Positions 8,580 to 19,560 of a DNA stretch of 64,000 nucleotides are shown here, piece after piece (within the stretch, counting starts at the first letter, position 1; each line of letters begins with the position of its first letter). This DNA comes from an uncultured Methanosarcinales archaeon. Lineage in GTDB: Archaea > Nanobdellota > Nanobdellia > Woesearchaeales > GW2011-AR4. The stretch lies in the NCBI GenBank assembly GCA_964454865.1, contig CAYVTQ010000001.1:3554-67553 (forward strand), given 5' to 3'. A program made the position numbers and the translations under genes. The notes beneath the pieces were generated by a model. The model was given only the letters and a program-made list of their open reading frames with translations, did no database searches and was not told where the DNA came from.

Positions 8580-9155
8580 ATGATGGCAAAAATCAAAAAT
8601 TATGCCGGAAAATCGCACTCAAATTTTGAGTATAGGGAACAGAATCAGGAAGTGTATTACGCTGTTGGCGACATAGTCAAGATTAGCAAAAATGATATCC
8701 AATTATTCAGAAGAAAGACTATGCAAAACAAGCGTTTGAGGAGCAGATTGTGCACCCATAAAGACATACATGATAATCTCCACGAGATGTTCATCATGTA
8801 CTCCAAAGCTGCTTATATAAGGCCGCATAGGCATCCTAATAAAAGCGTATCCTATCACATAGTTGAAGGCTGCGTTGACGTCATTTTATTTAATGAGGCG
8901 GGAAATGTAAAAGAAATAATCCGGATGGGGGATTACTTAACCGGCCTTACTTTTTATTTCCGCATTTCCGACCCGCACTATTATATGCCAATACCAAGAT
9001 CCGATTTTTTGGTTTTTGAGGAGATTACAAATGGGCCCTTCAACGATTCCCATACCGTATTTGCTCCATGGGCCCCTGATGATGGCGATAACTTTGCTGT
9101 TAAAAAATTTATGAATGCATTAGAAGTCAAGATTAAAAGGTGGCCCTCGAATTAA
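8580..9155 (+). CDS. Cupin-fold protein, possibly WbuC-like (glycan-locus associated)
   Basis: PHRHP...SVSYHIVEG cupin metal-binding pattern; sits at the start of the sugar gene block. Confidence 0.4.
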   Translation: MMAKIKNYAGKSHSNFEYREQNQEVYYAVGDIVKISKNDIQLFRRKTMQNKRLRSRLCTHKDIHDNLHEMFIMYSKAAYIRPHRHPNKSVSYHIVEGCVDVILFNEAGNVKEIIRMGDYLTGLTFYFRISDPHYYMPIPRSDFLVFEEITNGPFNDSHTVFAPWAPDDGDNFAVKKFMNALEVKIKRWPSN

Positions 9156-9184
9156 GCTCTTTCAATAATCTTAGGAGTATAGGA

Positions 9185-10465
9185 ATGGAATCAAATTCTT
9201 TTCAGCGCAATCAATGCCGGGCGTGCAAAAGCAGAAATCTCGAATTAGTTTTGCCTCTTGCACCCATACCTATTGCTGATGCATATGTTTCCAAGGAATG
9301 CCTAAATGAAGCTCAAAATACTTACCCTTTGGAAGTTTTTTTGTGCAAAAATTGCGGCCTTGTGCAACTGCTTGAAACCATAGACCCGGAAATTTTATAC
9401 AGTAAATTCCTCTATGAAACCTCCACCTCACTAGGCCTTGCAGCCCATTTTCAAAAATATGCCCATGAAGTATTTAAAAAAATCGGGCCTCAAAAAGACA
9501 GCCTTATTGTAGATATAGGGAGCAATGACGGAACCCTGCTAAAAGCGTTTAAGGGCGAAGGGGCCACTAATGTCTTAGGAATAGACCCTGCTGAAGATAT
9601 CTCGAAAAAAGCGACAAAAAACGGAATAAAAACCGTGCCAAAATTTTTTAATATGGGGCTTGCCAATGAAATCACAAAAGAATACGGATTGGCTGGAATA
9701 GTCACTTCAAACAATACCCTTGCCAATATTGATAATCTGGCGGAATTTATTGGTGCAATCAAGCAGCTTATTGACGACCATGGGGTGTTCATCTTTGAAA
9801 CTGTCTATCTGGTTGACCTGTTGACGAATGCCGTTTTTGACAACATCTATCATGAGCATTTAAATTATTTCTCTGTCGGAGCCCTTAAAAAATTATTTCA
9901 GTTGCACAACTTGGAATTGGCGGATGTCGAGAGAATAGAAACCAAAGGAGGGTCTATACGCTGCTATGTCCAGCATAAACAGGGGCCCCTGAAGACTTCA
10001 TCTTCAGTAAATGAACTGATCAGCATGGAAAACGGCCTGAAAATAACTTCTGCGGAAATCTATACCAAATTATCTAAAAAACTAGAGCGCCATAAGCATG
10101 AATTGAGACACTTTCTCACTGATTTAAGGAGCAAGGGCAAGATAATCGCCGGCTACTGTGCGTCGCAAAGTGTTACGACTTTTCTTTATTATTTCGGCAT
10201 AGGGGAGTTTATAAAATTTATAGCGGACGATAACTCCATAAAGCACGGCACATTCAGCCCCGGCTTGCATATCCCGGTTTTGCCGCCGGATGAAATCTAC
10301 AGGCAAAAACCTGATTTTATAATAATATTGGCATGGAGATATTCCGACCCAATCATTAAAAAGCATCAGCTTTATCTTAATGGAAATGGGAGCTTTATTG
10401 TGCCATTTCCTGCTATAGAACTTTTTGATAAAAGTGGCATGAAAGAAGCGGCTAAACATCAATAA
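9185..10465 (+). CDS. NDP-hexose C-methyltransferase (TylCIII/EvaC-like, Zn-ribbon + SAM MT + C-terminal domain)
   Basis: N-terminal CRAC...CKNCG zinc ribbon, DIGSNDG SAM motif, long C-terminal domain; start placed at M16 to avoid overlap with upstream gene. Confidence 0.7.
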   Translation: MESNSFQRNQCRACKSRNLELVLPLAPIPIADAYVSKECLNEAQNTYPLEVFLCKNCGLVQLLETIDPEILYSKFLYETSTSLGLAAHFQKYAHEVFKKIGPQKDSLIVDIGSNDGTLLKAFKGEGATNVLGIDPAEDISKKATKNGIKTVPKFFNMGLANEITKEYGLAGIVTSNNTLANIDNLAEFIGAIKQLIDDHGVFIFETVYLVDLLTNAVFDNIYHEHLNYFSVGALKKLFQLHNLELADVERIETKGGSIRCYVQHKQGPLKTSSSVNELISMENGLKITSAEIYTKLSKKLERHKHELRHFLTDLRSKGKIIAGYCASQSVTTFLYYFGIGEFIKFIADDNSIKHGTFSPGLHIPVLPPDEIYRQKPDFIIILAWRYSDPIIKKHQLYLNGNGSFIVPFPAIELFDKSGMKEAAKHQ

Positions 10466-10475
10466 GGCATCTAAA

Positions 10476-11522
10476 ATGAGAGAACCGGACAATTTCAAAA
10501 ATATAATTTCAGCATTGTGCGATAAGGCAAATATCTCGGGAAACTACAAACTGGAGACTATCAAGGGCGGAAGGAACAACCAGACTTTCTGCGTTTCCTG
10601 CGATAATGGCACCAAGGCACTGCTTAAATACTATTTCAACAGCAGATTTGACAAAAGAAATCGCCTGGCATCCGAACACGCTTTTTTGAAATATCTGCGC
10701 GAATTGGGCTATACCCGCATCCCAAGAGTATTGGCAGTCGACACCGGCAACAATTTAGGGTTATATGAGTATATAGAAGGGAAAAAACTGAGCGCGTCAG
10801 AAATTGGCAAATCTGAAGTGGACTCTGCGATTGATTTCTTTTGCCGCATAAACAACGGAAAATATAGCCTCAAAAACAGCTTTTATCCGGCATCAGAAGC
10901 ATGTTTTAATCTCAATGACCATATAAGAACCGTTGAGACTAGGATTTCTAAACTATCTTCTATAGCCGGAACATCCGGAACAGACCGCATGGCAAGGGAA
11001 TTTATAAAAAATAAGCTAATTGTTTTGTGGGATGAGGTCAGGCAGCATGTATTAGAAAGCACTGCAAGCCTGAACATGGATTTGGATAAAGACATGCCTG
11101 CCAATGAAAAATGCCTGTCCCCTTCCGATTTCGGATTCCACAATGCCCTGAAAAATAGCTCCGGCGAAATTTATTTTTTCGATTTTGAATATGCCGGAAT
11201 AGACGATCCATCCAGAATGATGTGCGATTTCTTCTGCCAGCCCGAAATACCTGTGCCTTTCAAATTTTTCCACTATTTTATCCGGAAGATTTGCAGCGCC
11301 ATACCTTACACTAAGGAAGTAAGTGATAGGGCCGCCATATTATTTCCAGTTTATAAACTGAAATGGTGCTGCATACTGCTGAATGAATTTTTGCAAGATA
11401 GCATGGCGCGCAGGAAATTTGCCATTTCTGAAGGGTCTCCTGACCTCAAGCTGCAGCAGCTCAATAAAGCTCTGAAATACATGGAAAATTTTGAATTGAT
11501 CAAGAACGAGATTATGGCGTAG
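10476..11522 (+). CDS. Phosphotransferase-family kinase (APH/choline-kinase fold)
   Basis: Brenner-type SDFGFHNAL (DxxxxN) catalytic loop and DFEYAG Mg-binding motif. Confidence 0.6.
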   Translation: MREPDNFKNIISALCDKANISGNYKLETIKGGRNNQTFCVSCDNGTKALLKYYFNSRFDKRNRLASEHAFLKYLRELGYTRIPRVLAVDTGNNLGLYEYIEGKKLSASEIGKSEVDSAIDFFCRINNGKYSLKNSFYPASEACFNLNDHIRTVETRISKLSSIAGTSGTDRMAREFIKNKLIVLWDEVRQHVLESTASLNMDLDKDMPANEKCLSPSDFGFHNALKNSSGEIYFFDFEYAGIDDPSRMMCDFFCQPEIPVPFKFFHYFIRKICSAIPYTKEVSDRAAILFPVYKLKWCCILLNEFLQDSMARRKFAISEGSPDLKLQQLNKALKYMENFELIKNEIMA

Positions 11523-11526: not shown

Positions 11527-12192
11527 ATGATGGGCGGACAACTTAGCATTATATCAGCATTGCATAAAAAAACCCAGCGTGATTATATTAAAAGGGTAAA
11601 CAACTCCAAAATTGATTGCATGAAAGTCGCAAGAATGTACGGCAAGGACTATTGGGACGGCGACAGAAAGTTCGGCTATGGAGGGTACAAATATGATGGA
11701 AGATGGTCTGTTGTGGCAAAAGAGCTGATAAAGATTTATAATCTCCCTGCCACAGCAAAAATCCTGGATGTAGGCTGCGGAAAAGGATTTCTGCTTTATG
11801 AGTTCAAAAAATTGCTGCCAAAATGCACAATTGCCGGGTTTGACATATCGGAATATGCCGTCAAGAATGCAAAAGAAGAGGTCAAGAGCGATTTGCACGT
11901 TCATCCGGCCCAAGATTCATATGGCTATACCGACAAAGAATTTGACCTTGTAGTATCTCTTACGACTCTCCACAACCTGAAAATTTATGATTTGCATTCT
12001 GCTTTAAAGGAGATAGAAAGGGTAGGGAAGCATAAATATATTGTTGTTGAGAGCTATAGGGATGAAAAGGAGCTATTTAATCTCGAATGTTGGGCACTCA
12101 CTGCCCAGTCTTTTTTCAGCATCGAGGAATGGGAATGGATTTTTGGGCATTTTGGCTATTCCGGCGATTACGAATTTATATTCTTCGAATAG
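11527..12192 (+). CDS. Class I SAM-dependent methyltransferase
   Basis: ILDVGCGKGFLL motif I, acidic motif II (GFDIS). Confidence 0.65.
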   Translation: MMGGQLSIISALHKKTQRDYIKRVNNSKIDCMKVARMYGKDYWDGDRKFGYGGYKYDGRWSVVAKELIKIYNLPATAKILDVGCGKGFLLYEFKKLLPKCTIAGFDISEYAVKNAKEEVKSDLHVHPAQDSYGYTDKEFDLVVSLTTLHNLKIYDLHSALKEIERVGKHKYIVVESYRDEKELFNLECWALTAQSFFSIEEWEWIFGHFGYSGDYEFIFFE

Positions 12193-12255: not shown

Positions 12256-13302
12256 ATGATTCATAGCCTTAAAAATTATATCGAAGGCATAAAAACTGCC
12301 TACAATACCGGTCTAATTGAAAGCTTAATTAAGCAATTCAAAACGAAAAAGTTGCTGGTAATAGGCGACACAATAATTGATGAATACTACTTTACCTCAA
12401 TCAAGGGAACTGCCATCAAGGATCCCATAATCTCTGCGGAATATAAATACCATGAAACTTATCCCGGCGGAATATTGGCAATTTATAGCCATCTAAGCGA
12501 TTTCGCGGATAAGATTAATTTAGTCACATTATTGGGAGAATACAGCCCTAACCTGGACTTTATTAAAAAAAATATCCATAAAAATACCAATTTTAAACAT
12601 TTTATAAAGCCGGATTCCCACACAATTGTAAAACGAAGGTACATAGACGCTTACAGGAATAACAAGCTTTTCAAAATAGAGTATATGAATGACATGCCAA
12701 TATCCGAAAAGCTGTCCGGGGAAATTCTGGATTATTTAAGAAATGAAATTAAAAAATATGATATAGTGATTGCAGGGGATTTCGGCCACGGCTTTCTCAA
12801 TAAGCAGATAAGGGAATGTTTGGATGAAGAATCCCCTTACCTGTCAATAAATGTGCAGACAAACAGCGCCAACAGGGGATACAATTATGTAAATCTTTAC
12901 AAAAAACCTGATTTTTTCACTATCAATGAGGAGGAATTGAGGCTGACTATGATGAAGAGATTTGACGACACTAACGAGGTTATAAGGGAATTGCACAACA
13001 CTTTTAAGTATGGTAAATTTCTTGTCACACGCGGTAAAGAGGGATGCACTTTTTTTAATGATGGAAATATTGTCGAGGCTCCGGCATTGACAGAGAATGT
13101 AATTGACACTATTGGATCCGGAGATGCAGTATTTTCAATTGCAAGCTTATTTGTGCATAGCCATCCGGATGATAATCTGGTCCCGTTTATCGCAAACTGT
13201 GCGGGGGCTATAAAATCCAATTACATGGGCAACAAAGAAAGAATCACAGCAGAAAAATTATTAAGATTTATCAAAGAGCTGTATGAAAATGAACTGGAAT
13301 AG
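12256..13302 (+). CDS. PfkB-family sugar kinase, RfaE domain-I-like (heptose-7-phosphate kinase-like)
   Basis: LLVIGDTIIDEYY N-terminus and GSGDA anion hole; no fused adenylyltransferase domain. Confidence 0.6.
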   Translation: MIHSLKNYIEGIKTAYNTGLIESLIKQFKTKKLLVIGDTIIDEYYFTSIKGTAIKDPIISAEYKYHETYPGGILAIYSHLSDFADKINLVTLLGEYSPNLDFIKKNIHKNTNFKHFIKPDSHTIVKRRYIDAYRNNKLFKIEYMNDMPISEKLSGEILDYLRNEIKKYDIVIAGDFGHGFLNKQIRECLDEESPYLSINVQTNSANRGYNYVNLYKKPDFFTINEEELRLTMMKRFDDTNEVIRELHNTFKYGKFLVTRGKEGCTFFNDGNIVEAPALTENVIDTIGSGDAVFSIASLFVHSHPDDNLVPFIANCAGAIKSNYMGNKERITAEKLLRFIKELYENELE

Positions 13303-13846
13303 CTATAAAGAATCAATAATAGGCGCCTTGGAGATTTTCAGATTTGATGAAGGGATACTTGATTTGATCAGGAATTCCGTCAGCAAAAACCAGAGGATTT
13401 TCATAGGAGGCAATGGCGGGAGCGCTGCATTATCATTGCATTACGCAGCAGATTTATCAAAAGGGGCCAATTCAAACTGGGAAAAAAACGCCAAAAGGCT
13501 TAAGGCTGTTCCCCTAACCGGCAGTATAGGGTATATCACTGCCATATCCAACGATCTTAATTATGATGAGATATTCAAGCAGCAATTGATAAATCTGGCA
13601 TCCAAAAATGATATACTGATTCTGATTTCCTCTTCCGGGAACAGCCCAAATATAGTAAAAGCTGCGGAATATGCAAAAAAAGCCGGACTGATTGTTGTAG
13701 GCATCACAGGATTTGATGGCGGAAAGCTGAAGGGGCTATCTGACTACTCAGCTCATCTGGACTTTGATTCATATGAAGTTTGCGAAGATGTCCACGGAAT
13801 ATTCGGCCATTTCCTTTCGTGCTATTTGAGAAGCAGCCCGGACTAG
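13283..13846 (+). CDS. gmhA: Phosphoheptose isomerase (SIS domain, GmhA-like)
   Basis: GGNGGSAALSLHYAADL, ISSSGNSPN and GFDGGK motifs match GmhA. Confidence 0.75.
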   Translation: MKMNWNSYKESIIGALEIFRFDEGILDLIRNSVSKNQRIFIGGNGGSAALSLHYAADLSKGANSNWEKNAKRLKAVPLTGSIGYITAISNDLNYDEIFKQQLINLASKNDILILISSSGNSPNIVKAAEYAKKAGLIVVGITGFDGGKLKGLSDYSAHLDFDSYEVCEDVHGIFGHFLSCYLRSSPD

Positions 13847-14445
13847 AGATTTTCCATATCTTCTATTATCTGGTGCCAAGACCTGACTATTCTGAATTTG
13901 CCATTTTGTATTTCTCCGCTCGGATCAAACAGCATTCTTTTAACTGACGTGGGGAATTTACTGCCGTTTAAGAACTCCGGCAAGTCATCAATAAAATGCG
14001 TGCATTTTTGAATTTTAATCCTTTCAATTTTCTTATCGCCTGTCAGTTCAAAAAATATATTCTCTTCCTTTAATCCCATCACCCCATCATAAAATCTGTT
14101 TCTCTTCAACCACTGGCGGGCGTATTTGTGCAGATCATACTTTGGCCCCATATAAGGGTTTAATGTCCTATGGCTGATTATATATGCCTGCAATCCTTTC
14201 TCCCTGCAGATTTCGAAAAAATCCCTTACTCCCTCAAATGGCTTTGCATTGAATATTCCGGGGCCGTAAATATATCCCTGCAGCTCAATCCATTCATTTT
14301 CCCTGCACGCATCCCTAAGATAGTCTCTCACGCTGTTTTTAGACATAGATAAATTTTTTGGTATGATTCCCTTATCCAGAGCAGTGTTGTAGAACAGATT
14401 ATCATAACATACAATTGTATTGTCAAAGTCTACTCCTATAATCAT
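13843..14445 (-). CDS. HAD-superfamily hydrolase (phosphatase)
   Basis: N-terminal VDFDNT (DxD) HAD motif I. Confidence 0.55.
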   Translation of the reverse strand: MIIGVDFDNTIVCYDNLFYNTALDKGIIPKNLSMSKNSVRDYLRDACRENEWIELQGYIYGPGIFNAKPFEGVRDFFEICREKGLQAYIISHRTLNPYMGPKYDLHKYARQWLKRNRFYDGVMGLKEENIFFELTGDKKIERIKIQKCTHFIDDLPEFLNGSKFPTSVKRMLFDPSGEIQNGKFRIVRSWHQIIEDMENL

Positions 14446-14455
14446 TTTATGAAAT

Positions 14456-15496
14456 TCAACCCATATCGATCAAGGGCCTGACAATCTTGCCAGATTCCAT
14501 ATCACCCAATGCATCATTAATTTCATTAAGCTTGTAGATATTTGACGTAAACGGCTCCAAGTTTATTTCGTGCGAGGCAATAAATTTCAGATACTTCAAA
14601 AAATCAGAGTCGGGATTGCTGTCCCCTCCCCATGTTCCCAGTATGCTCTTGCCCATATTAAACTCTTGGGGGTTAATATTCAAAATTTTGCCATGGGGGG
14701 CATTTCCAACTATCACAACCTTTCCCCCCTGTTTCCTTACGCTACTCACAGCCTGCAGCATTGTTTCAGGCATTCCGCATGATTCTATTGCAAAATCCAC
14801 CCCATTTTTGCAAACTTCTCTTATTTTATCTGGAGAAAGATCGTTGGAGTTATCTATCAGGTGGGTAGCCCCGTACTTCTCCGCTGTTTTTAATTTATTT
14901 TTATTAATATCGACTGCAAATATCGGGCGGCACTGGCTAATTCTTGCTCCTGCAATAGCAAATAGGCCTATGCCTCCTGTGCCAAACACGGCAATGCTCT
15001 CCCCTTTTTTCGGCTTTGCAACATTAAGGACAGCCCCCATTCCAGTAGGGAATGCACAGCCTAGTAACGCAATCTCTTTCATTGAAATATCCCAGCTCTC
15101 CGGCACGGCGGTCAAGCGATTTTCTGAAATAACGGACTGCCTTGAAAATGTGGTGATAGCTCCGGCATTTACTCTTTTCCCGCCTAATTCATAGGCTGTT
15201 CCCGGCACGTCCATTCCGGAGCCTTTTATCCACGACATTATGACCTTATCACCGGGCTTTACCTTCGTTACTTTAGGGCCGGCTTCCCTGACTATTCCCG
15301 AGCCTTCATGCCCCAGGCAATGCGGCAAATACTTGTCCTCTCCTCTGTGGCCATATTTTTCTAAAATCTGAGTATGGCAAACTCCGCTATATTTTATATC
15401 CACCAAAACCTGGCCATCCTTTAATTCAGGGATTTTCAGGCTTACCAATTTCAGCGGATTTCCCAATTCTTCCAGTATTGCAGCTTCAGTCAGCAT
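14456..15496 (-). CDS. Zinc-dependent alcohol dehydrogenase (MDR family)
   Basis: GVCHTQ and GHEGSG Zn-ADH motifs, GxGxxG Rossmann (GTGGIG). Confidence 0.8.
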   Translation of the reverse strand: MLTEAAILEELGNPLKLVSLKIPELKDGQVLVDIKYSGVCHTQILEKYGHRGEDKYLPHCLGHEGSGIVREAGPKVTKVKPGDKVIMSWIKGSGMDVPGTAYELGGKRVNAGAITTFSRQSVISENRLTAVPESWDISMKEIALLGCAFPTGMGAVLNVAKPKKGESIAVFGTGGIGLFAIAGARISQCRPIFAVDINKNKLKTAEKYGATHLIDNSNDLSPDKIREVCKNGVDFAIESCGMPETMLQAVSSVRKQGGKVVIVGNAPHGKILNINPQEFNMGKSILGTWGGDSNPDSDFLKYLKFIASHEINLEPFTSNIYKLNEINDALGDMESGKIVRPLIDMG

Positions 15497-16412
15497 TATT
15501 AAGATTCTCCATTATTTTTTTTGATATTTGATAAGGGGCAAGACCCATAAATTCCCTTGCGTAAGATTGGCTTCCAACCCTGTATAAGAACCTATCTTTT
15601 GTCCCGAATCTCAATAATCTGGATTTTTTGAAATTGTCACATGACCATTCAGCCACGCTTGATCCCAGCCCTCCAAGAAGGCTGTGCTCTTCAATTGTCG
15701 CAATCAGGCCGAATTCATTGAAAACATCGCTCAAAACTTCAGTATCCAAGGGCTTCAATGTAAACATATTTACCACTTGCGCAGATATGCCTTTTTCACC
15801 CAAAATTTTGGCAGCCTCAACAGAAGTGGACAGCATATTGCCTATACTTAAAATACAAACATCTTTTCCTTTTTGGATAATATTCCCCTTGCCGATTTTT
15901 GAATTTGGCACTTCCTTGTAAACAAGAGGGTCATTTTTTTTCCCTAGCCTCAGATAAACCGGCCCGTCATGATTTAGGGCCAGCCTTATAGCGGACCTTA
16001 CTTCATAGGCATCTCCGGGGCAAATGACAGACATATTAGGAAGCGCCCTCATTATTGCCAGATCCTCGCATGAATGGTGGGTTGCACCCAATGGGGCATA
16101 TTCAAACCCCGCCCCTACTGCCACTATAACCACTGGAAAATTGTTGTAGCATATATCCACCCTTATTTGTTCATAACATCTTGTCGTTATGAACGGCGCT
16201 ATGGTGTAACCAATAGGCCTCAGCCCGCAAGAGGCTATTCCGGCAGCCATTCCAATTAAATTAGCTTCTGCCACTCCGCAATTAAAAAACCTGTTGGGGA
16301 ACTTTTCTTTGAACTTATCAAAGAGCTTGTTGCCTATGTCGCCCGGCATCAAAACAACCTTGTCATTCTTTTCCGCTAATTTTGTCACTTCATCTGCAAA
16401 GGCATTCCTCAT
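15486..16412 (-). CDS. Transketolase, C-terminal (pyrimidine-binding) subunit of split enzyme
   Basis: 308 aa transketolase Pyr/C-terminal domains; 4-bp overlap with N-terminal subunit gene. Confidence 0.8.
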   Translation of the reverse strand: MRNAFADEVTKLAEKNDKVVLMPGDIGNKLFDKFKEKFPNRFFNCGVAEANLIGMAAGIASCGLRPIGYTIAPFITTRCYEQIRVDICYNNFPVVIVAVGAGFEYAPLGATHHSCEDLAIMRALPNMSVICPGDAYEVRSAIRLALNHDGPVYLRLGKKNDPLVYKEVPNSKIGKGNIIQKGKDVCILSIGNMLSTSVEAAKILGEKGISAQVVNMFTLKPLDTEVLSDVFNEFGLIATIEEHSLLGGLGSSVAEWSCDNFKKSRLLRFGTKDRFLYRVGSQSYAREFMGLAPYQISKKIMENLNNAD

Positions 16413-17284
16413 ATTAATCCCAGCTCCTTTTTAGCCTTAATCAATTCCTGTTCATTTGGAACTTTGTAATGCCAATTGTTATCGTCCTCCATAAATGACA
16501 CTCCTTTGCCTTTTGTTGTGTGGGCAATAACAGCCACTGGCTTTCCGGAGCCGTCAGGAATGTTATTGAGTATCTTAAATATCTCCTGGAGATTATGCCC
16601 GTCAATTTCATAAACGCTCCATCCAAAAGATCTCCACTTATCAGCCAGCGGCTCTATTGCTAAAATTTCAGTACTTCTTCCAGTTGCCTGCCACTTATTA
16701 AAATCAACAATCACCGCAACGTTTTCAAGCTTGTGCATTGGAGCAAACATTGCAGCTTCCCAAACAGACCCCTCATTACATTCGCCATCGCTTATAAGTG
16801 CAAATACTCTATAGTCTCTTTGCTGTATGCCTCCTCCAAGAGAAATCCCGATGCCGAATGGCAGTCCATGGCCAAGGGATCCTGTTATAGCTTCAACACC
16901 CGGAATTCCCCGGTCCGGGTGCTCTGCAAAAGCTGTATCATTTTTGCCGAATGTCTCAAGCAAACTTTCTTCAAAAAATCCCTTATAAGCAAGAGTCGCG
17001 TACAATGCCATTGCAGCATGCCCTTTACTAAGGATAAACCTATCCCTGCCAGGCTCTTTTGGGTCCTTGGGGTTTATTTTAAGTATCTTCCAGTAAATCA
17101 CTGCCAAAATATCTACACAAGACAGGGCTGATGCCAGATGAGCAACATCCGCCTTGCTGGCCATTTCCAGGACCTTGCCGCGAATTTTACTTGCGATTTT
17201 ACTTAATTCCAAAAAATCCGGATTTTTGTCGTTTAGCTTCATTTGTTTGCTGGGTTTATACCCCTCCCCTTGGGGCGACCTCAT
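16409..17284 (-). CDS. Transketolase, N-terminal (TPP-binding) subunit of split enzyme
   Basis: GHAAMALYA and GSLGHGL TPP-binding motifs; 291 aa. Confidence 0.8.
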   Translation of the reverse strand: MRSPQGEGYKPSKQMKLNDKNPDFLELSKIASKIRGKVLEMASKADVAHLASALSCVDILAVIYWKILKINPKDPKEPGRDRFILSKGHAAMALYATLAYKGFFEESLLETFGKNDTAFAEHPDRGIPGVEAITGSLGHGLPFGIGISLGGGIQQRDYRVFALISDGECNEGSVWEAAMFAPMHKLENVAVIVDFNKWQATGRSTEILAIEPLADKWRSFGWSVYEIDGHNLQEIFKILNNIPDGSGKPVAVIAHTTKGKGVSFMEDDNNWHYKVPNEQELIKAKKELGLI

Positions 17285-17291: not shown

Positions 17292-18419
17292 TTACTTTTG
17301 GAATGAATTTATCCCTTCAATAACAAGATTAATTTGGCTATCTTTTAGTTCCGGGTAAAGAGGCAGGCTTAATATCCTTTTTGCCTGCTTTTCTGCCACT
17401 GGAAAATCTCCTTTTTTGAATCCGAGACTCAGCGATTGCAGCTGCAAATGGATAGGCACAGGGTAATGGACTTTAGTTTCTATGCCCTTGCCAAGCAGAT
17501 ATTTTTGCAATTCATCCCTTTTTTCAGACTCTATGATGAAATTATGATAAAACGGCTCTTCATACTCTTTGTCATGGGGTATTTTTGCAATACCTTTTGC
17601 TTCTTTCAGCCCTTTTCGGTATAAAGAAACTATCTCCTTAATTCTTGCCCCGGTATCCTCCAAATGCCTTAAGCGCACATTGAGGATTGCGGCTTGTATG
17701 GAATCCAAGCGTGAATTATATCCCCACATGATTGTCTCGTCCCTGTTTTTAAGCCCGTGATTTCTGAGATGGAGTATCTTTTCATATAACTCCTTATTAT
17801 TAGTCGTTATAACTCCGCCATCCCCGCAGCAATTAAGGTTCTTTAGAGGATGCAGGCTAAAACAGCCTGCAATTCCGAATGATCCCACCCTTGCCCCCTT
17901 ATATTCTGCCCCTACAGCCTGTGCAGTATCTTCTATCACATGCAGCCCGTTCTTTTTTGCCATTTCCAATATTGGAGACATATTTGCAGGCCTTCCAGTC
18001 AAATGCACAGGTATTATTGCTCTTGTGTTTTTTGTAATTGCTTTTTCTATAAGATCAGGATTTATGTTGTAGTCATCGCCGACATCTGCAAAAGCCGGCA
18101 CCGCCCCGGCAGCTATTATGGCACCGGCAGTCGCTATAAATGAATTTGGCGCCGTTATTACTTCATCTCCCTGACCTATCCCCAAAGCCTTCATGCAGAG
18201 AAATAAGGCGTCAGTCCCATTGCCCACGCCTATTGCATAGCTGCAGCCGCAATATTTTGCAAATTCCCTTTCAAACTCCTTCACTTCCGACCCCAGTATA
18301 TAATCTCCTGATTCCAAGACGGAATTTATCCTAGACACTATTTCTGCTTTTGCCGACTCAAACTGGGCTGATAAATCCACAAACTTCACTTTTACATTAC
18401 TCGCGCATTGCTCACTCAT
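17292..18419 (-). CDS. DegT/DnrJ/EryC1/StrS family sugar aminotransferase (PLP)
   Basis: Fold-type I AT; conserved sugar-AT blocks. Confidence 0.85.
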   Translation of the reverse strand: MSEQCASNVKVKFVDLSAQFESAKAEIVSRINSVLESGDYILGSEVKEFEREFAKYCGCSYAIGVGNGTDALFLCMKALGIGQGDEVITAPNSFIATAGAIIAAGAVPAFADVGDDYNINPDLIEKAITKNTRAIIPVHLTGRPANMSPILEMAKKNGLHVIEDTAQAVGAEYKGARVGSFGIAGCFSLHPLKNLNCCGDGGVITTNNKELYEKILHLRNHGLKNRDETIMWGYNSRLDSIQAAILNVRLRHLEDTGARIKEIVSLYRKGLKEAKGIAKIPHDKEYEEPFYHNFIIESEKRDELQKYLLGKGIETKVHYPVPIHLQLQSLSLGFKKGDFPVAEKQAKRILSLPLYPELKDSQINLVIEGINSFQK

Positions 18420-19560
18420 AAAACTCCCTTATTTTTTTAACCGCATATTCCTGCTGTTCTTTTGTAATAAACTCATGAACCGGCAATGAGATCACTGATT
18501 TGCACACTTCTTCACAAAACGGAAAATCTCCTTCCTTGTACCTCCAACCTTTTGCTGCTGGCTGCAGATGCATTGGAATGGGATAGTGAATTTTGGCGTC
18601 TATCCCATTTTCTATAAGGTATTTTTGCAATTCGTCCCTCCTTTTAGCCATTATTACATAGATATGGAATACATGCTTCGCATTCTGGCTTCTTTTCGGG
18701 ATTCTTATCTGGGGAACCTTTGAAAGCTCTTCATCAAAAAATTTTGCATTCCTGATTCTTGACTCAGTTATGTGTTCAATCTTTTTCAGAAGATGGCTGG
18801 CTACAACTGCCTGTATTGAATCCAGTCTTGAATTATAAGCCCATACAAAGCACTCATTTCTGTTTACAAGCCCGTGATTTCTAAGCAAAACCAGCCTGTC
18901 GTGCAAATCTTTCGAATTGGTTGTTATCACTCCCCCGTCTCCCCATACATTTAAGTTCTTAAGGGGATGGAGGCTGAAGCATCCCATGTTTCCAAAACTG
19001 CCGGGCGATTTTTCCCCGATTTTGGAATTTATTGCGTGGCATGCATCTTCAACTACATATAAATTATGCTTACTTGCGATTGACATAATCTTTTCCATAC
19101 TGCACGGCATGCCGGACCAGTGAACTGGAAGTATTGCCTTGGTTCTTTTTGTGAGCACTCCTTCTATAAGATCAGGATCAATATTCAGATCCTCCCCAAT
19201 ATCAGCAAATACCGGAGTTGCCCCGGCAGTGACAATAGCGCCCACTGTCGCAAAAAAAGTATAAGGGGTTGTAACAACCTCATCTCCCTGCCCTACTCCC
19301 AGCGCCTTCAAGCTAAGGAATAATGCGCCTGTCCCGCTGCCAACCCCTATCGCATACTTAGTGCCAACAATTTCTGCAAACTCTTTTTCAAATAAATCCA
19401 CGCTCTTGCCAAGCGTGAAATCGCCATCAATAACGACCTTTTCCATCTCTTTAAAAATCTCCTTATAGTCTAAAAACTGCTGCTGCAGATAATTGTGGTT
19501 GATGCCTCTCTTTGCAGTTTCCTCATACTGTTGCGGAAGATAATTATGATCTATTGCCAT
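18412..19560 (-). CDS. DegT/DnrJ/EryC1/StrS family sugar aminotransferase, tandem paralogue
   Basis: About 60% identical over core to 17292..18419; 8-bp overlap with it. Confidence 0.85.
   Translation of the reverse strand: MAIDHNYLPQQYEETAKRGINHNYLQQQFLDYKEIFKEMEKVVIDGDFTLGKSVDLFEKEFAEIVGTKYAIGVGSGTGALFLSLKALGVGQGDEVVTTPYTFFATVGAIVTAGATPVFADIGEDLNIDPDLIEGVLTKRTKAILPVHWSGMPCSMEKIMSIASKHNLYVVEDACHAINSKIGEKSPGSFGNMGCFSLHPLKNLNVWGDGGVITTNSKDLHDRLVLLRNHGLVNRNECFVWAYNSRLDSIQAVVASHLLKKIEHITESRIRNAKFFDEELSKVPQIRIPKRSQNAKHVFHIYVIMAKRRDELQKYLIENGIDAKIHYPIPMHLQPAAKGWRYKEGDFPFCEEVCKSVISLPVHEFITKEQQEYAVKKIREFYE

What the first reader, a model, noticed from the sequence alone, without database searches (positions are those of the whole stretch)
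12256..17284. Second heptose-phosphate module (RfaE-kinase-like + GmhA + HAD phosphatase) beside a split transketolase and Zn-ADH
A PfkB kinase with the RfaE domain-I signature (LLVIGDTIIDEYY, GSGDA), but lacking the fused adenylyltransferase, overlaps a second GmhA-like SIS isomerase. These are followed by a HAD phosphatase, a Zn-dependent alcohol dehydrogenase and a two-gene split transketolase. Together with the transaldolase at 45.7 kb, the island appears to carry its own sedoheptulose-7-P supply (non-oxidative pentose-phosphate enzymes) and two differently organised heptose activation modules, one bacterial beta-type and one alpha-type. This hints at two distinct heptoses or a modified heptose such as a deoxy- or reduced form.
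Basis: partly seen in the sequence, partly recalled or inferred. Interest (0 to 1): 0.55.

Follow-up and report, generated by a model that had tools for sequence, protein, structure and literature searches.

The report
Modified-heptose cassette with atypical transketolase
The six genes are real, but they are the middle of a 14-gene cassette, shared by many bacteria and archaea, that most likely builds a heavily modified seven-carbon sugar for this archaeon's protein glycans; its "transketolase" is an atypical variant that probably adds a two-carbon piece to that sugar rather than supplying a precursor.

Summary
Observation confirmed. All six ORFs are at the stated coordinates, with the quoted motifs.

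Interpretation partly supported.
- **Kinase and isomerase.** The PfkB kinase is closest to heptose-7-phosphate kinases and the SIS protein to GmhA. Both score far below the equivalog cut-offs. They form a separate clade whose relatives are fused to each other or to an HldC-like nucleotidyltransferase.
- **HAD protein.** It is a confident HAD fold, but resembles 5'(3')-deoxyribonucleotidases, not GmhB.
- **Transketolase.** The evidence is against a pentose-phosphate or sedoheptulose-7-phosphate-supplying enzyme. The phosphate-binding His (E. coli H461) is Gly and the acceptor-binding Asp (D469) is Leu. All 120 nearest homologues show the same change, as does apulose-4-phosphate transketolase.
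- **Conserved block.** In 7 of 7 independently sampled contexts this variant sits in one block (SDR, TK-N, TK-C, Zn-ADH, HAD, APH-like kinase, SDR, methyltransferase) beside the heptose genes.
- **Context in cultured bacteria.** In Methylovirgula and Paenibacillus the same variant sits inside CDP-hexose deoxysugar clusters.
- **Alternative enzymes.** Sister loci carry E1αβ-like or YerE-like ThDP enzymes instead.

Best reading: window 8580–21656 is one conserved cassette, inside an AglB N-glycosylation island, for a nucleotide-activated, aminated, methylated heptose that also receives a two-carbon unit. No HldC-type nucleotidyltransferase lies in the window. The roles of the kinase, the HAD and the alcohol dehydrogenase remain open.

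The parts
8580..9155 (+). WbuC/DUF6016-family cupin (sugar epimerase or ketoisomerase type); first gene of the + strand run
   Evidence: TIGR04366 cupin_WbuC, 113 bits against a cut-off of 42. DUF6016 in the identical Logan contig. Recurs in the cassette in L085, L088, L090 and L100.
9140..10465 (+). Sugar C-methyltransferase (Zn-ribbon, SAM domain and C-terminal domain; TylC3-like architecture)
   Evidence: Methyltransf_13, Methyltransf_23 and Methyltransf_14. The same architecture occurs in bacterial copies of the cassette.
10476..11522 (+). APH/choline-kinase-like small-molecule kinase; partner of the HAD protein and the TK-like pair
   Evidence: PF01636 APH 3.8e-9 and Choline_kinase 2.5e-5; no PDB hit. 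Of 11 PfkB-anchored loci with this kinase, 10 also have the TK-like pair. Apparently fused to the HAD protein in L003, L018, L046 and L005: one ORF there matches both queries by blastp; Pfam finds no domain in the L003 ORF.
11527..12192 (+). Class I SAM methyltransferase (221 aa); the most conserved cassette protein; usually adjacent to the Zn-ADH
   Evidence: Methyltransf_31/11/25. 52-69% identity in bacterial and archaeal loci. A 220-aa orthologue ends the block in L085, L087, L090, L099 and L100.
12256..13302 (+). PfkB sugar-phosphate kinase of a clade sister to RfaE domain I/HldA; probable heptose-7-phosphate 1-kinase
   Evidence: TIGR02198, 122.7 bits over the full length (cut-off 345). 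Only PDB hit is HldA 4e84. 820 homologues, some fused to SIS. Bacterial relatives are CTP_transf_like::PfkB fusions.
13283..13846 (+). GmhA-like SIS ketose-phosphate isomerase with an H53/D57/E168/H171 tetrad
   Evidence: TIGR00441, 110.7 bits (cut-off 209). PDB hits are all GmhA or DiaA. In the alignment, nearly all PfkB-associated SIS proteins read His-x3-Asp and Glu-x2-His. Adjacent or fused to PfkB in 64 of 81 loci.
13843..14445 (-). C1-capped HAD-superfamily phosphatase with a 5'(3')-deoxyribonucleotidase-like fold; last gene of the - strand run
   Evidence: No Pfam, NCBIfam or PDB sequence hit. 3218 homologues of about 200 aa. Invariant D6, D8, T10, S91, K139, D153, D154. AF2 pLDDT 95.5. 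Foldseek top hits 3bwv, 4mum, 2jao, TM 0.6-0.7. Follows TK-C or the ADH in every sampled context.
14456..15496 (-). Zn-dependent medium-chain alcohol dehydrogenase, class I/III/P-like, lacking the structural-zinc lobe
   Evidence: ADH_N plus ADH_zinc_N. Best PDB hit 4rqt, 7.7e-46, in two aligned stretches that skip about 27 more residues of the PDB chain than of the query (query 87 to 101 against 4rqt 89 to 128); by my knowledge of horse-liver ADH this skipped part is the structural-zinc lobe. The catalytic-Zn motifs GVCHTQ, GHEGSG and LGCAFPTG (C40, H63, C147) are kept.
15486..16412 (-). C-half (Pyr and C-terminal domains) of a split transketolase-like ThDP enzyme; variant active site (G100 for E. 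coli H461, L108 for D469)
   Evidence: Against the canonical split TK 6yaj: 'ATHAGLTVGEDGASHQ' aligns to 'VAVGAGFEYAPLGATHH'. The same change is seen in the roughly 14 full-length cassette orthologues and in 120 of 120 nearest homologues. R2 (R358), E49 (E411), H112 (H473) and R155 (R520) are kept.
16409..17284 (-). N-half (PP domain) of the split transketolase-like ThDP enzyme; catalytic histidines intact
   Evidence: 6yak 6.2e-70. Equivalents of E. coli H26, H66, H100, D155, N185 and H261 are H49, H89, H122, D166, N196 and H272.
17292..18419 (-). DegT/DnrJ/EryC1-family sugar aminotransferase 1
   Evidence: PF01041 4.6e-113. Paired copies adjoin the cassette in L003, L006, L021, L029 and L061.
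18412..19560 (-). DegT/DnrJ/EryC1-family sugar aminotransferase 2
   Evidence: PF01041 1.6e-103.
19660..20661 (-). Extended SDR, NDP-sugar 4,6-dehydratase-like
   Evidence: TIGR01181 dTDP_gluc_dehyt, 212.8 bits (cut-off 365). A 330-aa SDR follows the APH kinase in most bacterial blocks.
20658..21656 (-). Extended SDR (epimerase/oxidoreductase type); first gene of the - strand run
   Evidence: Epimerase/3Beta_HSD. A 332-aa SDR lies immediately upstream of TK-N in L085, L087 and L088 and in L061, where it matches this protein at 48% identity. A non-orthologous SDR is fused to TK-N in Paenibacillus.
22041..23801 (-). Carbamoyltransferase (NodU/CmcH type); probable accessory tailoring enzyme
   Evidence: Carbam_trans_N and Carbam_trans_C. 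62-77% identical copies in L028, L030 and L035, and a homologue in L088.
42643..46355 (+). Second sugar-1-phosphate module: NTP-transferase (HddC-like), GmhB-like HAD-IIIA, GHMP kinase (HddA-like), SIS with a 9-residue insertion, transaldolase/FSA
   Evidence: all below equivalog cut-offs except the HAD-IIIA subfamily models. SIS2 is adjacent to the transaldolase in L052 and L068 as well.
34673..37705 (+). AglB/STT3 oligosaccharyltransferase; marks the island as an N-glycosylation island
   Evidence: PF02516 STT3 9.8e-43.

Best explanation
The finding is the central part of one conserved cassette of about 13 kb and 14 genes (window 8580-21656). The cassette lies inside an archaeal AglB N-glycosylation island. 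It most likely makes a nucleotide-activated, heavily tailored heptose-derived sugar.

**Steps supported by homology, gene fusions and synteny**
1. The SIS protein isomerises a ketose phosphate, most likely sedoheptulose-7-phosphate, to the aldose phosphate.
2. The PfkB kinase phosphorylates the anomeric position, as in the HldE/HldA route.
3. In relatives, a GmhB-like HAD and an HldC-like (CTP_transf_like) nucleotidyltransferase finish the pathway. Both are missing from this window. Completion must therefore use genes elsewhere in the genome, or the HddC-like and GmhB-like genes at 42.6-44.0 kb.

**Steps inferred**
4. The two extended SDRs, two DegT aminotransferases, the cupin, the C-methyltransferase and the SAM methyltransferase then tailor the nucleotide sugar (dehydration or oxidation, amination, epimerisation, methylation).
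5. The split transketolase-like enzyme is not a pentose-phosphate enzyme. It belongs to a large variant subfamily whose active site has lost the phosphate-binding His and the acceptor-2-hydroxyl-binding Asp. Apulose-4-phosphate transketolase has lost the same two residues. I infer that the enzyme transfers a two-carbon glycolaldehyde unit onto a carbonyl of the sugar, most likely a keto group made by the adjacent SDR or by the Zn-ADH. The product would be a branched or chain-extended higher sugar.
6. The APH-like kinase and the nucleotidase-like HAD travel with the transketolase pair. They probably act as a kinase-then-phosphatase pair that relocates a phosphate. Their substrate is unknown.
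7. The Zn-ADH pairs with the 221-aa methyltransferase even where no transketolase is present. It probably oxidises or reduces a side-chain position of the heptose.
For: **Heptose route**
- Kinase: best model rfaE_dom_I, 122.7 bits over its full length; only PDB hit is HldA.
- SIS protein: best model gmhA; PDB hits are all GmhA or DiaA.
- Fusions in relatives: PfkB-SIS, CTP_transf_like::PfkB, CTP_transf_like::HAD. An xSTT motif is present in 17 of 20 of the last group. This motif is the hallmark of heptose nucleotidyltransferases (PMC11573728).
- 64 of 84 loci carry such a nucleotidyltransferase within 10 kb.

**One cassette**
- Gene junctions are tight.
- The block SDR, TK-N, TK-C, (ADH), HAD, APH, SDR, MT220, together with PfkB and SIS, was found in 7 of 7 contexts anchored on TK-C or on the HAD protein. 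The contigs that carry a label are from Pyrinomonadaceae, Desulfobacterales and Chlamydiales; the rest are unlabelled.
- The same block is contiguous in Margulisiibacteriota and Poribacteria loci.

**Transketolase variant**
- H461 to Gly and D469 to Leu in the window, in the full-length cassette orthologues, and in 120 of 120 nearest homologues.
- Published roles of these residues: H461 binds substrate phosphate, D469 binds sugar hydroxyls, and D469 mutants accept non-hydroxylated aldehydes (PMC3657141, PMC11387542).
- The catalytic histidines of the N-half are kept.
- The same variant is found in E. coli AptB (annotated as such in PMC13001218).

**Nucleotide-sugar context**
- Methylovirgula: rfbF, rfbG, oxidoreductase, rfbH, TK-N, TK-C.
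- Paenibacillus: rfbF, rfbG, C-methyltransferase, SDR::TK-N fusion, TK-C.

**Analogous displacement**
- Of 36 PfkB loci with full flanks, 27 carry a ThDP enzyme: TK-like in 13, E1αβ-like in 12, ALS/YerE-like in 6.
- TK-like and E1αβ-like never occur together in the 81 loci; ALS/YerE-like does co-occur with each (L009; L033, L039, L041).
- E1αβ-like and YerE-type enzymes are known to attach two-carbon branches to NDP-4-keto sugars (PMC4802897).
Against: - No biochemical data exist for any member of this cassette.
- The window has no HldC-type nucleotidyltransferase, so the route cannot be closed from the window alone.
- Both the kinase and the SIS protein are below the equivalog cut-offs. The SIS protein alters two of the four GmhA zinc/catalytic residues (E to D, Q to E). 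The substrate could therefore be a ketose phosphate other than sedoheptulose-7-phosphate.
- The transketolase C-half keeps both phosphate-binding arginines (R358 and R520 equivalents).
- It is always accompanied by a HAD phosphatase, even in L088, which lacks the ADH and the kinase. Both points fit a phosphorylated small-molecule acceptor as well as they fit an NDP-sugar.
- The variant motif also occurs in catabolic apiose-type clusters. It therefore marks altered specificity, not nucleotide-sugar chemistry as such.
- The Paenibacillus and Methylovirgula enzymes are only about 40% identical to the window's.
- The exact acceptor carbon and the order of steps are guesses.
Confidence: 0.55

Rival explanations
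1. The split transketolase, with the transaldolase at 45.7 kb, supplies sedoheptulose-7-phosphate in a host lacking the non-oxidative pentose-phosphate pathway. SIS, PfkB kinase and HAD form a beta-type heptose-1-phosphate module. The ADH modifies the product.
For: - The transketolase genes are co-located with the SIS and PfkB genes.
- The N-half catalytic residues, the cofactor Glu and both phosphate-binding arginines are intact.
- The enzyme is 41-48% identical to a genuine split transketolase (6yaj/6yak).
- Many archaea lack the non-oxidative pentose-phosphate pathway (my knowledge, not tested here).
- The transaldolase is adjacent to the second SIS gene here and in L052 and L068. A dedicated ketose-phosphate supply is therefore credible for that module.
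Against: - The H461 and D469 equivalents are Gly and Leu throughout the subfamily. These residues bind the sugar phosphate and its hydroxyls (PMC3657141, PMC11387542).
- The pair travels with SDR, ADH, HAD and APH genes in bacteria of several phyla.
- Most PfkB/SIS loci have no transketolase.
- The variant also sits in CDP-hexose clusters that have no heptose genes.
- The HAD is not GmhB-like, and in L100 it coexists with a GmhB-like HAD.
Confidence: 0.1
2. The transketolase-like pair works on small phosphorylated substrates before nucleotide activation. It builds an unusual ketose phosphate, branched or deoxy, analogous to running apulose-4-phosphate transketolase in reverse. The APH-like kinase then phosphorylates that product at a second position and the HAD removes the original phosphate. 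This gives a second sugar-1-phosphate, or after reduction by the ADH a polyol phosphate, which is activated and attached to the glycan alongside the heptose.
For: - The R358 and R520 equivalents are retained.
- The TK-like pair and the HAD are inseparable, even in L088, which lacks the ADH and the kinase.
- The HAD and the APH kinase appear fused in archaeal loci: one ORF matches both queries. This mirrors the kinase-plus-phosphatase logic of HldE/GmhB.
- The motif is shared with AptB, which acts on a branched tetrulose phosphate.
- The APH protein matches the choline/ethanolamine-kinase model.
- CTP_transf_like enzymes also activate phospho-alcohols (my knowledge).
Against: - An SDR lies directly upstream of TK-N in L085, L087, L088 and L061.
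- An SDR is fused to TK-N in Paenibacillus.
- The CDP-hexose clusters contain no kinase or HAD.
- TK-like and E1αβ-like enzymes are mutually exclusive, and E1αβ-like enzymes are known NDP-sugar branchers (PMC4802897).
- Most cassette copies carry only one nucleotidyltransferase.
Confidence: 0.22
3. The SIS/PfkB pair here is a remnant or an accessory. With no HldC-type nucleotidyltransferase nearby, the nucleotide heptose (or octose) is made only by the second, alpha-type module. The genes at 8580-21656 simply tailor that GDP-sugar.
For: - No CTP_transf_like gene occurs anywhere in the 64 kb, nor in the roughly 4 kb read beyond the window's start; almost nothing could be read beyond its other end.
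- A complete alpha-type set exists at 42643-45657.
- The window's transketolase, ADH and HAD genes look bacterial, while PfkB and SIS look archaeal. The cassette is therefore a mosaic.
Against: - PfkB and SIS are intact, overlapping, full-length ORFs with all family-invariant residues.
- Both kinase types coexist in bacterial loci L052 and L059, so having two modules is a recurring design.
- A few full-length loci (L009, L028, L034) also lack the CTP_transf_like gene.
Confidence: 0.13

Closest known systems
[quoted passage not shown] 2024
   Same: - The isomerase is SIS-fold and the kinase is PfkB-fold, and each matches GmhA or RfaE-I/HldA best.
- Relatives show domain fusions of kinase with nucleotidyltransferase and of isomerase with kinase. 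Multi-domain isomerase/kinase/nucleotidyltransferase enzymes have been reported in bacteria, archaea and eukaryotes (PMC11573728).
- The nucleotidyltransferases of archaeal relatives carry the STT motif.
   Different: - Both proteins are far below the equivalog cut-offs (122.7 against 345; 110.7 against 209).
- The isomerase has Asp for the catalytic Glu and Glu for the zinc-ligand Gln.
- The domain order in bacterial fusions is nucleotidyltransferase then kinase, the reverse of HldE.
- The window has no HldC-type nucleotidyltransferase and no GmhB next to these genes.
- The genes sit among nucleotide-sugar tailoring enzymes in an N-glycosylation island, not in an LPS core locus.
ThDP-dependent two-carbon branching of NDP-4-keto sugars (YerE in yersiniose; AviB1/AviB2 in avilamycin; Plm8/Plm9 in paulomycin)
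   Same: - A ThDP enzyme is embedded among an NDP-sugar dehydratase, aminotransferases and methyltransferases.
- Sister loci of the same heptose cassette carry E1αβ-like or ALS/YerE-like enzymes in its place.
- In Methylovirgula the TK-like pair follows rfbF, rfbG and rfbH, the position that YerE would occupy.
   Different: - The architecture is transketolase-type (split PP and Pyr/C halves), not ALS-type or E1-type.
- The intact transketolase histidines suggest a glycolaldehyde (dihydroxyethyl) unit from a ketose or hydroxypyruvate donor, rather than an acetyl unit from pyruvate.
- The sugar is probably a heptose rather than a 6-deoxyhexose.
- The function is untested.
Apulose-4-phosphate transketolase AptA/AptB (D-apiose catabolism; Carter et al. 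2018, as used in PMC13001218)
   Same: - It is a split transketolase.
- The C-half lacks the H461 and D469 equivalents ('GLNAGASYGPLASTHH' against the window's 'VAVGAGFEYAPLGATHH').
- From my knowledge of the published pathway, the reaction forms or breaks the C-C bond at a tertiary carbinol/ketone (DHAP). This is the chemistry needed to branch a keto sugar.
   Different: - Only 32-37% identical.
- The context is catabolic (ABC transporter, FGGY kinase) rather than biosynthetic.
- AptB lacks the R358 equivalent, which the window's protein keeps.
Canonical split transketolase (e.g. Carboxydothermus hydrogenoformans, PDB 6yaj/6yak)
   Same: - Closest solved structures (6.2e-70 and 1.9e-63).
- The same two-gene split.
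- The same ThDP/Mg motifs, cofactor Glu and catalytic histidines.
   Different: 'THAGLTVGEDG' is replaced by 'VGAGFEYAPLG': the His and Asp that hold the sugar phosphate are lost.
GDP-D-glycero-alpha-D-manno-heptose pathway (GmhA, HddA, GmhB, HddC) and the lincomycin GDP-octose pathway (LmbR, LmbN, LmbP, LmbK, LmbO)
   Same: The second module (42643-46355) has the same five enzyme types as the Lmb set: transaldolase, isomerase, GHMP kinase, HAD phosphatase and NTP-transferase. The Lmb comparison is from my knowledge, not tested by sequence.
   Different: All are below the equivalog cut-offs. No Lmb sequences were available for comparison. The product, heptose or octose, is undetermined.

Membership tests
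RfaE domain I / HldA heptose-7-phosphate kinase (TIGR02198) | Scores at or above the curated equivalog cut-off of TIGR02198 | tested here: not met
   122.7 bits against a cut-off of 345. The alignment is full-length (25-336 against 2-311 of 315).
RfaE domain I / HldA heptose-7-phosphate kinase (TIGR02198) | PfkB fold with the GxGD catalytic-base motif, and closer to heptose kinases than to any other PfkB family | tested here: met
   PF00294 1.4e-13; DTIGSGDA at 284-291. The next best PfkB model scores 34 bits. The only PDB hit is HldA 4e84, 3.8e-13.
RfaE domain I / HldA heptose-7-phosphate kinase (TIGR02198) | Works with a GmhA-type isomerase and an HldC-type nucleotidyltransferase (operon or fusion) | tested here: met
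   SIS overlaps the kinase here. Relatives show PfkB-SIS and CTP_transf_like::PfkB fusions. Caveat: the nucleotidyltransferase is absent from this window.
RfaE domain I / HldA heptose-7-phosphate kinase (TIGR02198) | [quoted passage not shown] | not testable with these tools
   Needs an enzyme assay.
GmhA sedoheptulose-7-phosphate isomerase (TIGR00441) | Scores at or above the equivalog cut-off | tested here: not met
   110.7 bits against 209.45.
GmhA sedoheptulose-7-phosphate isomerase (TIGR00441) | Zinc/catalytic tetrad His61, Glu65, Gln175, His183 (N. gonorrhoeae numbering; PMC5387315) | tested here: not met
   The window has H53, D57, E168, H171: Glu to Asp and Gln to Glu. Nearly all SIS proteins associated with this PfkB clade, including the window's second SIS protein, show the same pattern in the alignment. 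The changes are chemically conservative, so metal binding and catalysis remain plausible.
GmhA sedoheptulose-7-phosphate isomerase (TIGR00441) | SIS fold with the phosphate-binding S-x-S-G-x-S/T loop | tested here: met
   SIS_2 8.3e-20; ISSSGNSPN aligns to ISTSGKSPN of C. jejuni GmhA.
GmhB heptose-1,7-bisphosphate 7-phosphatase (HAD-IIIA; TIGR00213/NF006506) | Matches the GmhB/HAD-IIIA models | tested here: not met
   The 200-aa protein matches no NCBIfam or Pfam model. The GmhB-like protein at 43397-43951 matches them at 1e-32 to 3e-40.
GmhB heptose-1,7-bisphosphate 7-phosphatase (HAD-IIIA; TIGR00213/NF006506) | Capless HAD-IIIA architecture | tested here: not met
   The model has a four-helix C1 cap (residues 15-66). 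The nearest structures are 5'(3')-deoxyribonucleotidases. In L100 it coexists with a GmhB-like HAD.
HAD-superfamily phosphatase | The four HAD motifs (DxDxT, S/T, K, DD) on a Rossmannoid fold | tested here: met
   D6, D8, T10, S91, K139, D153 and D154 are invariant in 39 sequences. pLDDT 95.5; Foldseek probability 1.00 to HAD phosphatases.
Transketolase EC 2.2.1.1 (pentose-phosphate enzyme) | ThDP/Mg motif GDG...N, cofactor Glu, and catalytic His residues (E. coli H26, H66, H100, H261, H473) | tested here: met
   H49, H89, H122, D166, N196 and H272 in the N-half; E49 and H112 in the C-half.
Transketolase EC 2.2.1.1 (pentose-phosphate enzyme) | Sugar-phosphate binding set R358, S385, H461, R520 | tested here: not met
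   The R358 and R520 equivalents are kept (R2, R155). H461 is Gly100. The S385 region is not confidently alignable.
Transketolase EC 2.2.1.1 (pentose-phosphate enzyme) | Asp469 (yeast Asp477), which binds the acceptor 2-hydroxyl | tested here: not met
   Leu108 in the window. The Asp is absent in 120 of 120 nearest homologues (usually Leu) and in the full-length cassette orthologues.
ThDP-dependent NDP-sugar two-carbon branching enzymes (YerE; AviB1/B2; Plm8/9) | Homology to the ALS-type (YerE) or E1αβ-type enzymes | tested here: not met
   The window's enzyme is transketolase-type. E1_dh scores only 1.8e-5 and TPP_enzyme_C 1.7e-3 on the N-half. E1αβ-like and ALS-like proteins occur in sister loci instead.
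ThDP-dependent NDP-sugar two-carbon branching enzymes (YerE; AviB1/B2; Plm8/9) | Embedded in a nucleotide-sugar deoxy/amino-sugar gene cluster next to the enzyme that makes the keto sugar | tested here: met
   Window 17292-21656; L085-L090, L099 and L100; Methylovirgula and Paenibacillus CDP-hexose clusters.
ThDP-dependent NDP-sugar two-carbon branching enzymes (YerE; AviB1/B2; Plm8/9) | Transfers a two-carbon unit to an NDP-keto sugar | not testable with these tools
   Needs an enzyme assay or glycan structure.
Apulose-4-phosphate transketolase AptA/AptB | Catabolic context with an apulose kinase (FGGY) and an ABC transporter | tested here: not met
   No such genes in the window. The E. coli SE15 and Rhizobium loci have them.
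Apulose-4-phosphate transketolase AptA/AptB | Variant Pyr-domain motif lacking the H461 and D469 equivalents | tested here: met
   The alignment. Identity is only 32-37%, so this is a shared trait, not orthology.

The most novel reading that the evidence does not exclude
A large, undescribed subfamily of split transketolases, present in several bacterial phyla and in DPANN and other archaea, is dedicated to nucleotide-sugar chemistry. It adds a glycolaldehyde unit to a keto group of an NDP-heptose, and in some bacteria of a CDP-deoxyhexose. The products would be branched or nine-carbon sugars that end up in archaeal N-glycans and bacterial surface polysaccharides. The recently discovered archaeal NDP-heptose enzymes would then have a concrete physiological role as the entry point to these sugars.
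Probability: 0.35. Interest if true: 0.8.

Novelty: new variant of a known kind. Interest (0 to 1): 0.6.

Why it matters
NDP-heptose biosynthetic enzymes were recently shown to exist in archaea, viruses and eukaryotes. Their purpose there is an open question, and the field has proposed looking at conserved neighbouring genes for clues (PMC11573728).

Here the heptose genes sit inside an AglB N-glycosylation island. Across dozens of archaeal and bacterial loci they are tied to nucleotide-sugar tailoring enzymes. In three quarters of complete loci they are also tied to a ThDP-dependent carbon-carbon bond-forming enzyme. This gives a testable answer: heptose is the precursor of complex, possibly branched or higher-carbon, glycan sugars.

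The work also flags a very common transketolase annotation that is probably wrong in metabolic reconstructions. Counting these genes as pentose-phosphate transketolases would overstate that pathway in DPANN archaea and many uncultured bacteria.

Finally, natural enzymes that carry the same His/Asp replacements that engineers introduce into E. coli transketolase could be useful biocatalysts.

Tried and rejected
1. **Housekeeping transketolase.** Rejected on active-site residues and on synteny conserved across phyla.
2. **HAD protein as a GmhB substitute.** Considered because bacterial TK-type loci often lack a GmhB-like gene. Weakened by L100, which has both, by archaeal loci that carry both it and a CTP_transf_like::HAD fusion, and by its nucleotidase-like fold.
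3. **Zn-ADH as the reducer of the transketolase product.** Weakened because the ADH pairs with the 221-aa methyltransferase in many loci without a transketolase.
4. **Transketolase cleaving the heptose side chain** (chain shortening). Rejected on mechanism: the carbon corresponding to the donor C3 bears the ring oxygen, not a free hydroxyl (reasoning only).
5. **Search for a hidden HldC-type nucleotidyltransferase.** A tblastn search and a custom HMM on the six-frame window found nothing. The roughly 4 kb read beyond the window's start is housekeeping; almost nothing could be read beyond its end.
6. **Literature.** Five searches for the cassette or for transketolases in O-antigen or heptose clusters found no description of it. 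Carter et al. 2018 is not held, so the AptAB reaction rests on my knowledge plus PMC13001218.
7. **PDB sequence searches.** Those for the HAD protein and the APH kinase gave nothing useful.
8. **tblastn of TK-C against plasmids.** It found no close (over 43%) copy of the heptose-type enzyme in cultured organisms, but did give the informative CDP-hexose and apiose-type relatives.
9. **Organism name.** Not obtainable. The cluster look-up carries no names, and the species is not the representative in the genome collection.
10. **RNA genes.** tRNA and Rfam scans of the window found nothing.

Full report
**What is in the sequence**

- PfkB kinase, 12256-13302 (+)
- SIS protein, 13283-13846 (+), overlapping the kinase by 20 nt
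- a 200-aa ORF, 13843-14445 (-)
- Zn-dependent alcohol dehydrogenase, 14456-15496 (-)
- transketolase C-half, 15486-16412 (-), and N-half, 16409-17284 (-)

Pfam and NCBIfam matches are far beyond chance. The quoted motifs are there: LLVIGDTIIDEYY, and DTIGSGDA at 284-291.

The window is archaeal. It holds topoisomerase VI A and B, a Taw1-type wyosine enzyme, a CTP-dependent riboflavin kinase and a 1010-aa AglB/STT3. The stretch from about 8.5 kb to 52.3 kb is a glycosylation island flanked by housekeeping genes.

**The kinase and the isomerase**

The kinase's best model is rfaE_dom_I (TIGR02198) at 122.7 bits over its full length. The equivalog cut-off is 345, and the next PfkB family scores 34 bits. 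Its only PDB match is the heptose-7-phosphate kinase HldA.

The SIS protein's best model is gmhA, at 110.7 bits against a cut-off of 209. Its PDB matches above the noise are all GmhA or DiaA. Neither protein is therefore a member of the curated equivalog families.

Both belong to a large separate clade:
- 820 homologues were found. They are mostly 50-66% identical; those that carry a source label are from Woesearchaeota and Nanoarchaeota.
- The species-level genome scan adds 'Methanosarcinales' MAGs, and bacterial relatives at 32-38% identity.
- Some relatives are PfkB-SIS fusions.
- Bacterial relatives are CTP_transf_like::PfkB fusions, the reverse domain order of HldE.
- Many archaeal loci carry a CTP_transf_like::HAD fusion. 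Of these, 17 of 20 have an xSTT motif, the hallmark reported for heptose nucleotidyltransferases (PMC11573728).

These fusions support the route isomerase, kinase, phosphatase, nucleotidyltransferase.

Nearly all SIS proteins next to this kinase clade, including the window's second SIS protein, read His-x3-Asp and Glu-x2-His. GmhA has His-x3-Glu and Gln-x2-His, and those four residues bind the catalytic zinc (PMC5387315).

A custom profile finds a CTP_transf_like gene within 10 kb in 64 of 84 loci. It finds none anywhere in the six-frame translation of this 64-kb window. The roughly 4 kb readable beyond the window's start is housekeeping, and almost nothing could be read beyond its other end.

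**The finding is part of a larger conserved cassette**

I compared window proteins by BLAST with 80 genome loci anchored on the kinase. I then looked up seven contexts anchored on the transketolase C-half or on the 200-aa protein.

The same block recurs: SDR (about 332 aa), TK-N, TK-C, Zn-ADH, the 200-aa protein, APH-like kinase, SDR (about 331 aa), and a 220-aa methyltransferase. A C-methyltransferase and a DUF6016/WbuC cupin often follow. CTP_transf_like::PfkB and SIS lie within 10 kb.
- All seven independently anchored contexts show the block. Three of those contigs carry a label: Pyrinomonadaceae, Desulfobacterales and Chlamydiales.
- It is contiguous in Margulisiibacteriota and Poribacteria loci.

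The window holds the same genes in two tight, convergent runs:
- 8580-13846 (+): cupin, C-methyltransferase, APH kinase, methyltransferase, PfkB, SIS.
- 21656-13843 (-): SDR, SDR, DegT, DegT, TK-N, TK-C, ADH, 200-aa protein.

The unit is therefore 8580-21656, not 12256-17284.

The window's transketolase, ADH and 200-aa proteins are closer to bacterial copies (48-59%) than to other archaeal cassette copies (38-47%). PfkB and SIS are closest to archaeal copies (59-66%). The cassette is a mosaic.

**The transketolase is a variant**

Its closest solved structures are the two chains of the Carboxydothermus split transketolase (6.2e-70 and 1.9e-63).

Conserved features:
- N-half: equivalents of E. 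coli H26, H66, H100, D155, N185 and H261.
- C-half: equivalents of R358, E411, H473 and R520.

The altered feature is the canonical 'THAGLTVGEDG', which reads 'VGAGFEYAPLG'. H461 becomes Gly100 and D469 becomes Leu108. The same loss is seen in the roughly 14 full-length cassette orthologues from bacteria and archaea and in all 120 nearest homologues.

H461 is associated with binding substrate phosphate. D469 hydrogen-bonds the sugar hydroxyls and selects the stereoisomer. D469 T, L, A, S and Y mutants of E. coli transketolase gain activity on non-hydroxylated aldehydes (PMC3657141, PMC11387542). This is evidence against a ribose-5-phosphate/xylulose-5-phosphate enzyme that supplies sedoheptulose-7-phosphate.

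**What the variant probably does**

Four observations point to carbon-carbon bond formation on a keto sugar.
1. In the Methylovirgula sp. HY1 plasmid the pair follows rfbF, rfbG, an oxidoreductase and rfbH. That is a CDP-3,6-dideoxy-4-keto-hexose pathway, and the pair occupies the position YerE has in yersiniose synthesis.
2. In the Paenibacillus cellulosilyticus plasmid, rfbF, rfbG and a C-methyltransferase are followed by an SDR::TK-N fusion and TK-C. Both enzymes have the variant motif.
3. Among 36 kinase-anchored loci with full flanks, 27 carry a ThDP enzyme: TK-like in 13, E1αβ-like in 12, ALS/YerE-like in 6. TK-like and E1αβ-like never co-occur in the 81 loci, though ALS/YerE-like co-occurs with each in four loci. 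E1αβ-like (Plm8/9, AviB1/B2) and YerE-type enzymes attach two-carbon branches to NDP-4-keto sugars (PMC4802897).
4. E. coli SE15 AptB also lacks the His and Asp. It is the C-half of apulose-4-phosphate transketolase (PMC13001218). To my knowledge of Carter et al. 2018, that enzyme breaks or forms the bond at a tertiary carbinol whose ketone partner is DHAP. That is the chemistry needed to branch a keto sugar.

The variant motif is thus shared by catabolic enzymes. It marks altered acceptor specificity, not nucleotide-sugar chemistry in itself.

**The other cassette proteins**

*The 200-aa protein.* It has no Pfam, NCBIfam or PDB sequence match. It belongs to a family of 3218 proteins in which D6, D8, T10, S91, K139, D153 and D154 are invariant. 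Its AlphaFold model is confident (pLDDT 95.5). The nearest structures are 5'(3')-deoxyribonucleotidases (TM 0.6-0.7, about 16% identity). It is a C1-capped HAD phosphatase, not the capless GmhB type.
- 8 of the 10 loci that have it also have the transketolase pair.
- It follows the transketolase pair even in L088, which lacks the ADH and the APH kinase.
- One ORF in L003, L018, L046 and L005 matches both it and the APH kinase, so the two appear fused there; Pfam finds no domain in the L003 ORF.
- In L100 it coexists with a GmhB-like HAD placed after SIS.

It therefore belongs to the transketolase sub-module rather than to the heptose-bisphosphate step. A kinase-then-phosphatase relocation of a phosphate is the simplest reading. 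The substrate is unknown.

*The Zn-ADH.* It keeps the catalytic-zinc motifs GVCHTQ, GHEGSG and LGCAFPTG (C40, H63, C147). The alignment to plant ADH 4rqt breaks between query residues 87 and 101, skipping about 27 more residues of the PDB chain than of the query. By my knowledge of horse-liver ADH this skipped part is the structural-zinc lobe. The ADH is adjacent to the 221-aa methyltransferase in many loci without a transketolase. It probably acts on the heptose side chain rather than only on the transketolase product.

**The second module**

Window 42643-46355 encodes an HddC-like NTP-transferase, a GmhB-like HAD-IIIA, an HddA-like GHMP kinase, a SIS protein with a nine-residue insertion, and a transaldolase/FSA. 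SIS2 and the transaldolase are adjacent here and in bacterial loci L052 and L068. Both kinase types coexist in L052 and L059.

A dedicated ketose-phosphate supply is plausible for this module. The five enzyme types also match the lincomycin GDP-octose set (my knowledge; untested), so the product could be an octose.

**Verdict**

The kinase and isomerase are heptose-pathway-like but form a distinct clade. The transketolase is not a precursor supplier, and the HAD is not GmhB.

The best-supported explanation is a conserved cassette for a nucleotide-activated, aminated and methylated heptose that receives a two-carbon unit, destined for N-glycans. I put this at about 0.55. The conserved cassette and the non-canonical transketolase are far more secure (about 0.85). 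The acceptor and the step order are inferred.

The main rival is a small-molecule, apulose-like route in which the kinase and HAD process the product (0.22). It is not excluded.

I found no description of this cassette in the searchable literature. It speaks directly to the open question of why archaea make NDP-heptose (PMC11573728).

**Caveats**
- Synteny was scored on six-frame ORFs with blastp thresholds.
- Taxon labels are those of MAG depositors.
- Residue equivalences come from HMMER and MAFFT alignments.
- No enzyme activity was or could be tested.

Noticed in passing
window 42643-46355 (+): The second module has the same five enzyme types as the lincomycin GDP-octose pathway (LmbR, LmbN, LmbP, LmbK, LmbO): NTP-transferase, GmhB-like HAD, GHMP kinase, SIS and transaldolase. 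It could therefore make an octose rather than a heptose. Its SIS protein has a nine-residue insertion (HGGKGKGNSGAWSQN) that is shared with bacterial loci L059, L064 and L068. SIS2 and the transaldolase are adjacent in L052 and L068 as well.
   Followed up: partly
window 13843-17284 versus 12256-13846: The cassette is a mosaic. TK-N, TK-C, the Zn-ADH and the HAD are 48-59% identical to bacterial copies (L048, L061) but only 38-47% identical to other archaeal cassette copies. PfkB and SIS are 59-66% identical to archaeal copies and 32-38% to bacterial ones. This suggests that the transketolase block was acquired from bacteria.
   Followed up: partly
loci L027, L030, L031, L033, L036, L039, L041, L051, L052, L054, L057-L059, L067, L072, L076, L082, L084 (E1αβ-like); L009, L023, L033, L039, L041, L044, L055 (ALS/YerE-like): Sister loci of the same PfkB/SIS heptose genes carry an E1 alpha/beta-like pair or a YerE-like ThDP enzyme instead of the TK-like pair. 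TK-like and E1αβ-like never occur together. Radical-SAM/SPASM genes (17 loci) and B12-radical-SAM genes (16 loci) are also frequent neighbours.
   Followed up: partly
window 34673-37705 (+) and about 8500-52300: A 1010-aa AglB/STT3 lies in the middle of an island of about 44 kb. The island holds several GT2 genes and one GT4 gene, about seven methyltransferases, a PMT_2-family protein, a UDP-sugar dehydrogenase, a UDP-GlcNAc 2-epimerase, an aminoglycoside-3-N-acetyltransferase-like protein and a flavin amine oxidase. It is bounded by housekeeping genes.
   Followed up: partly
window 22041-23801 (-): An NodU/CmcH-type carbamoyltransferase lies just upstream of the cassette. Copies 62-77% identical occur next to the kinase in L028, L030 and L035, and a homologue occurs in L088. 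The sugar may be carbamoylated.
   Followed up: no
window 24742-25803 (+), 25790-26968 (+), 26961-28307 (-): A HAD-GNAT fusion protein, an SGNH/GDSL hydrolase with an AlgX-like region, and a second TylC3-like C-methyltransferase. These are further tailoring genes of unknown target.
   Followed up: no
window 6244-8527 (-): A MoxR-like AAA+ ATPase (7415-8527) is paired with a VWA-domain protein (6244-7428), immediately outside the glycosylation island.
   Followed up: no
window 57781-60132 (-): A 783-aa ORF has no Pfam match at E of 1e-5 or better. Smaller ORFs at 1249-1959, 3445-4026 and 52593-53300 also have no match.
   Followed up: no
L091 (Paenibacillus cellulosilyticus plasmid NZ_CP054609.1, locus 10097-12927) and L096 (Methylovirgula sp. 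HY1 plasmid NZ_CP073765.1, locus 9186-10939): Cultured bacteria carry the variant TK-like pair inside CDP-glucose-derived deoxysugar clusters. In Paenibacillus the N-half is fused to an SDR. These organisms are practical entry points for testing the chemistry.
   Followed up: partly
L009, L021, L046, L047, L070, L074: A shorter form of the TK-C gene (about 160 aa, Pyr domain only, motif 'GYA---DYPxxGPTH') accompanies TK-N in some archaeal and bacterial loci. It appears to lack the C-terminal domain.
   Followed up: no
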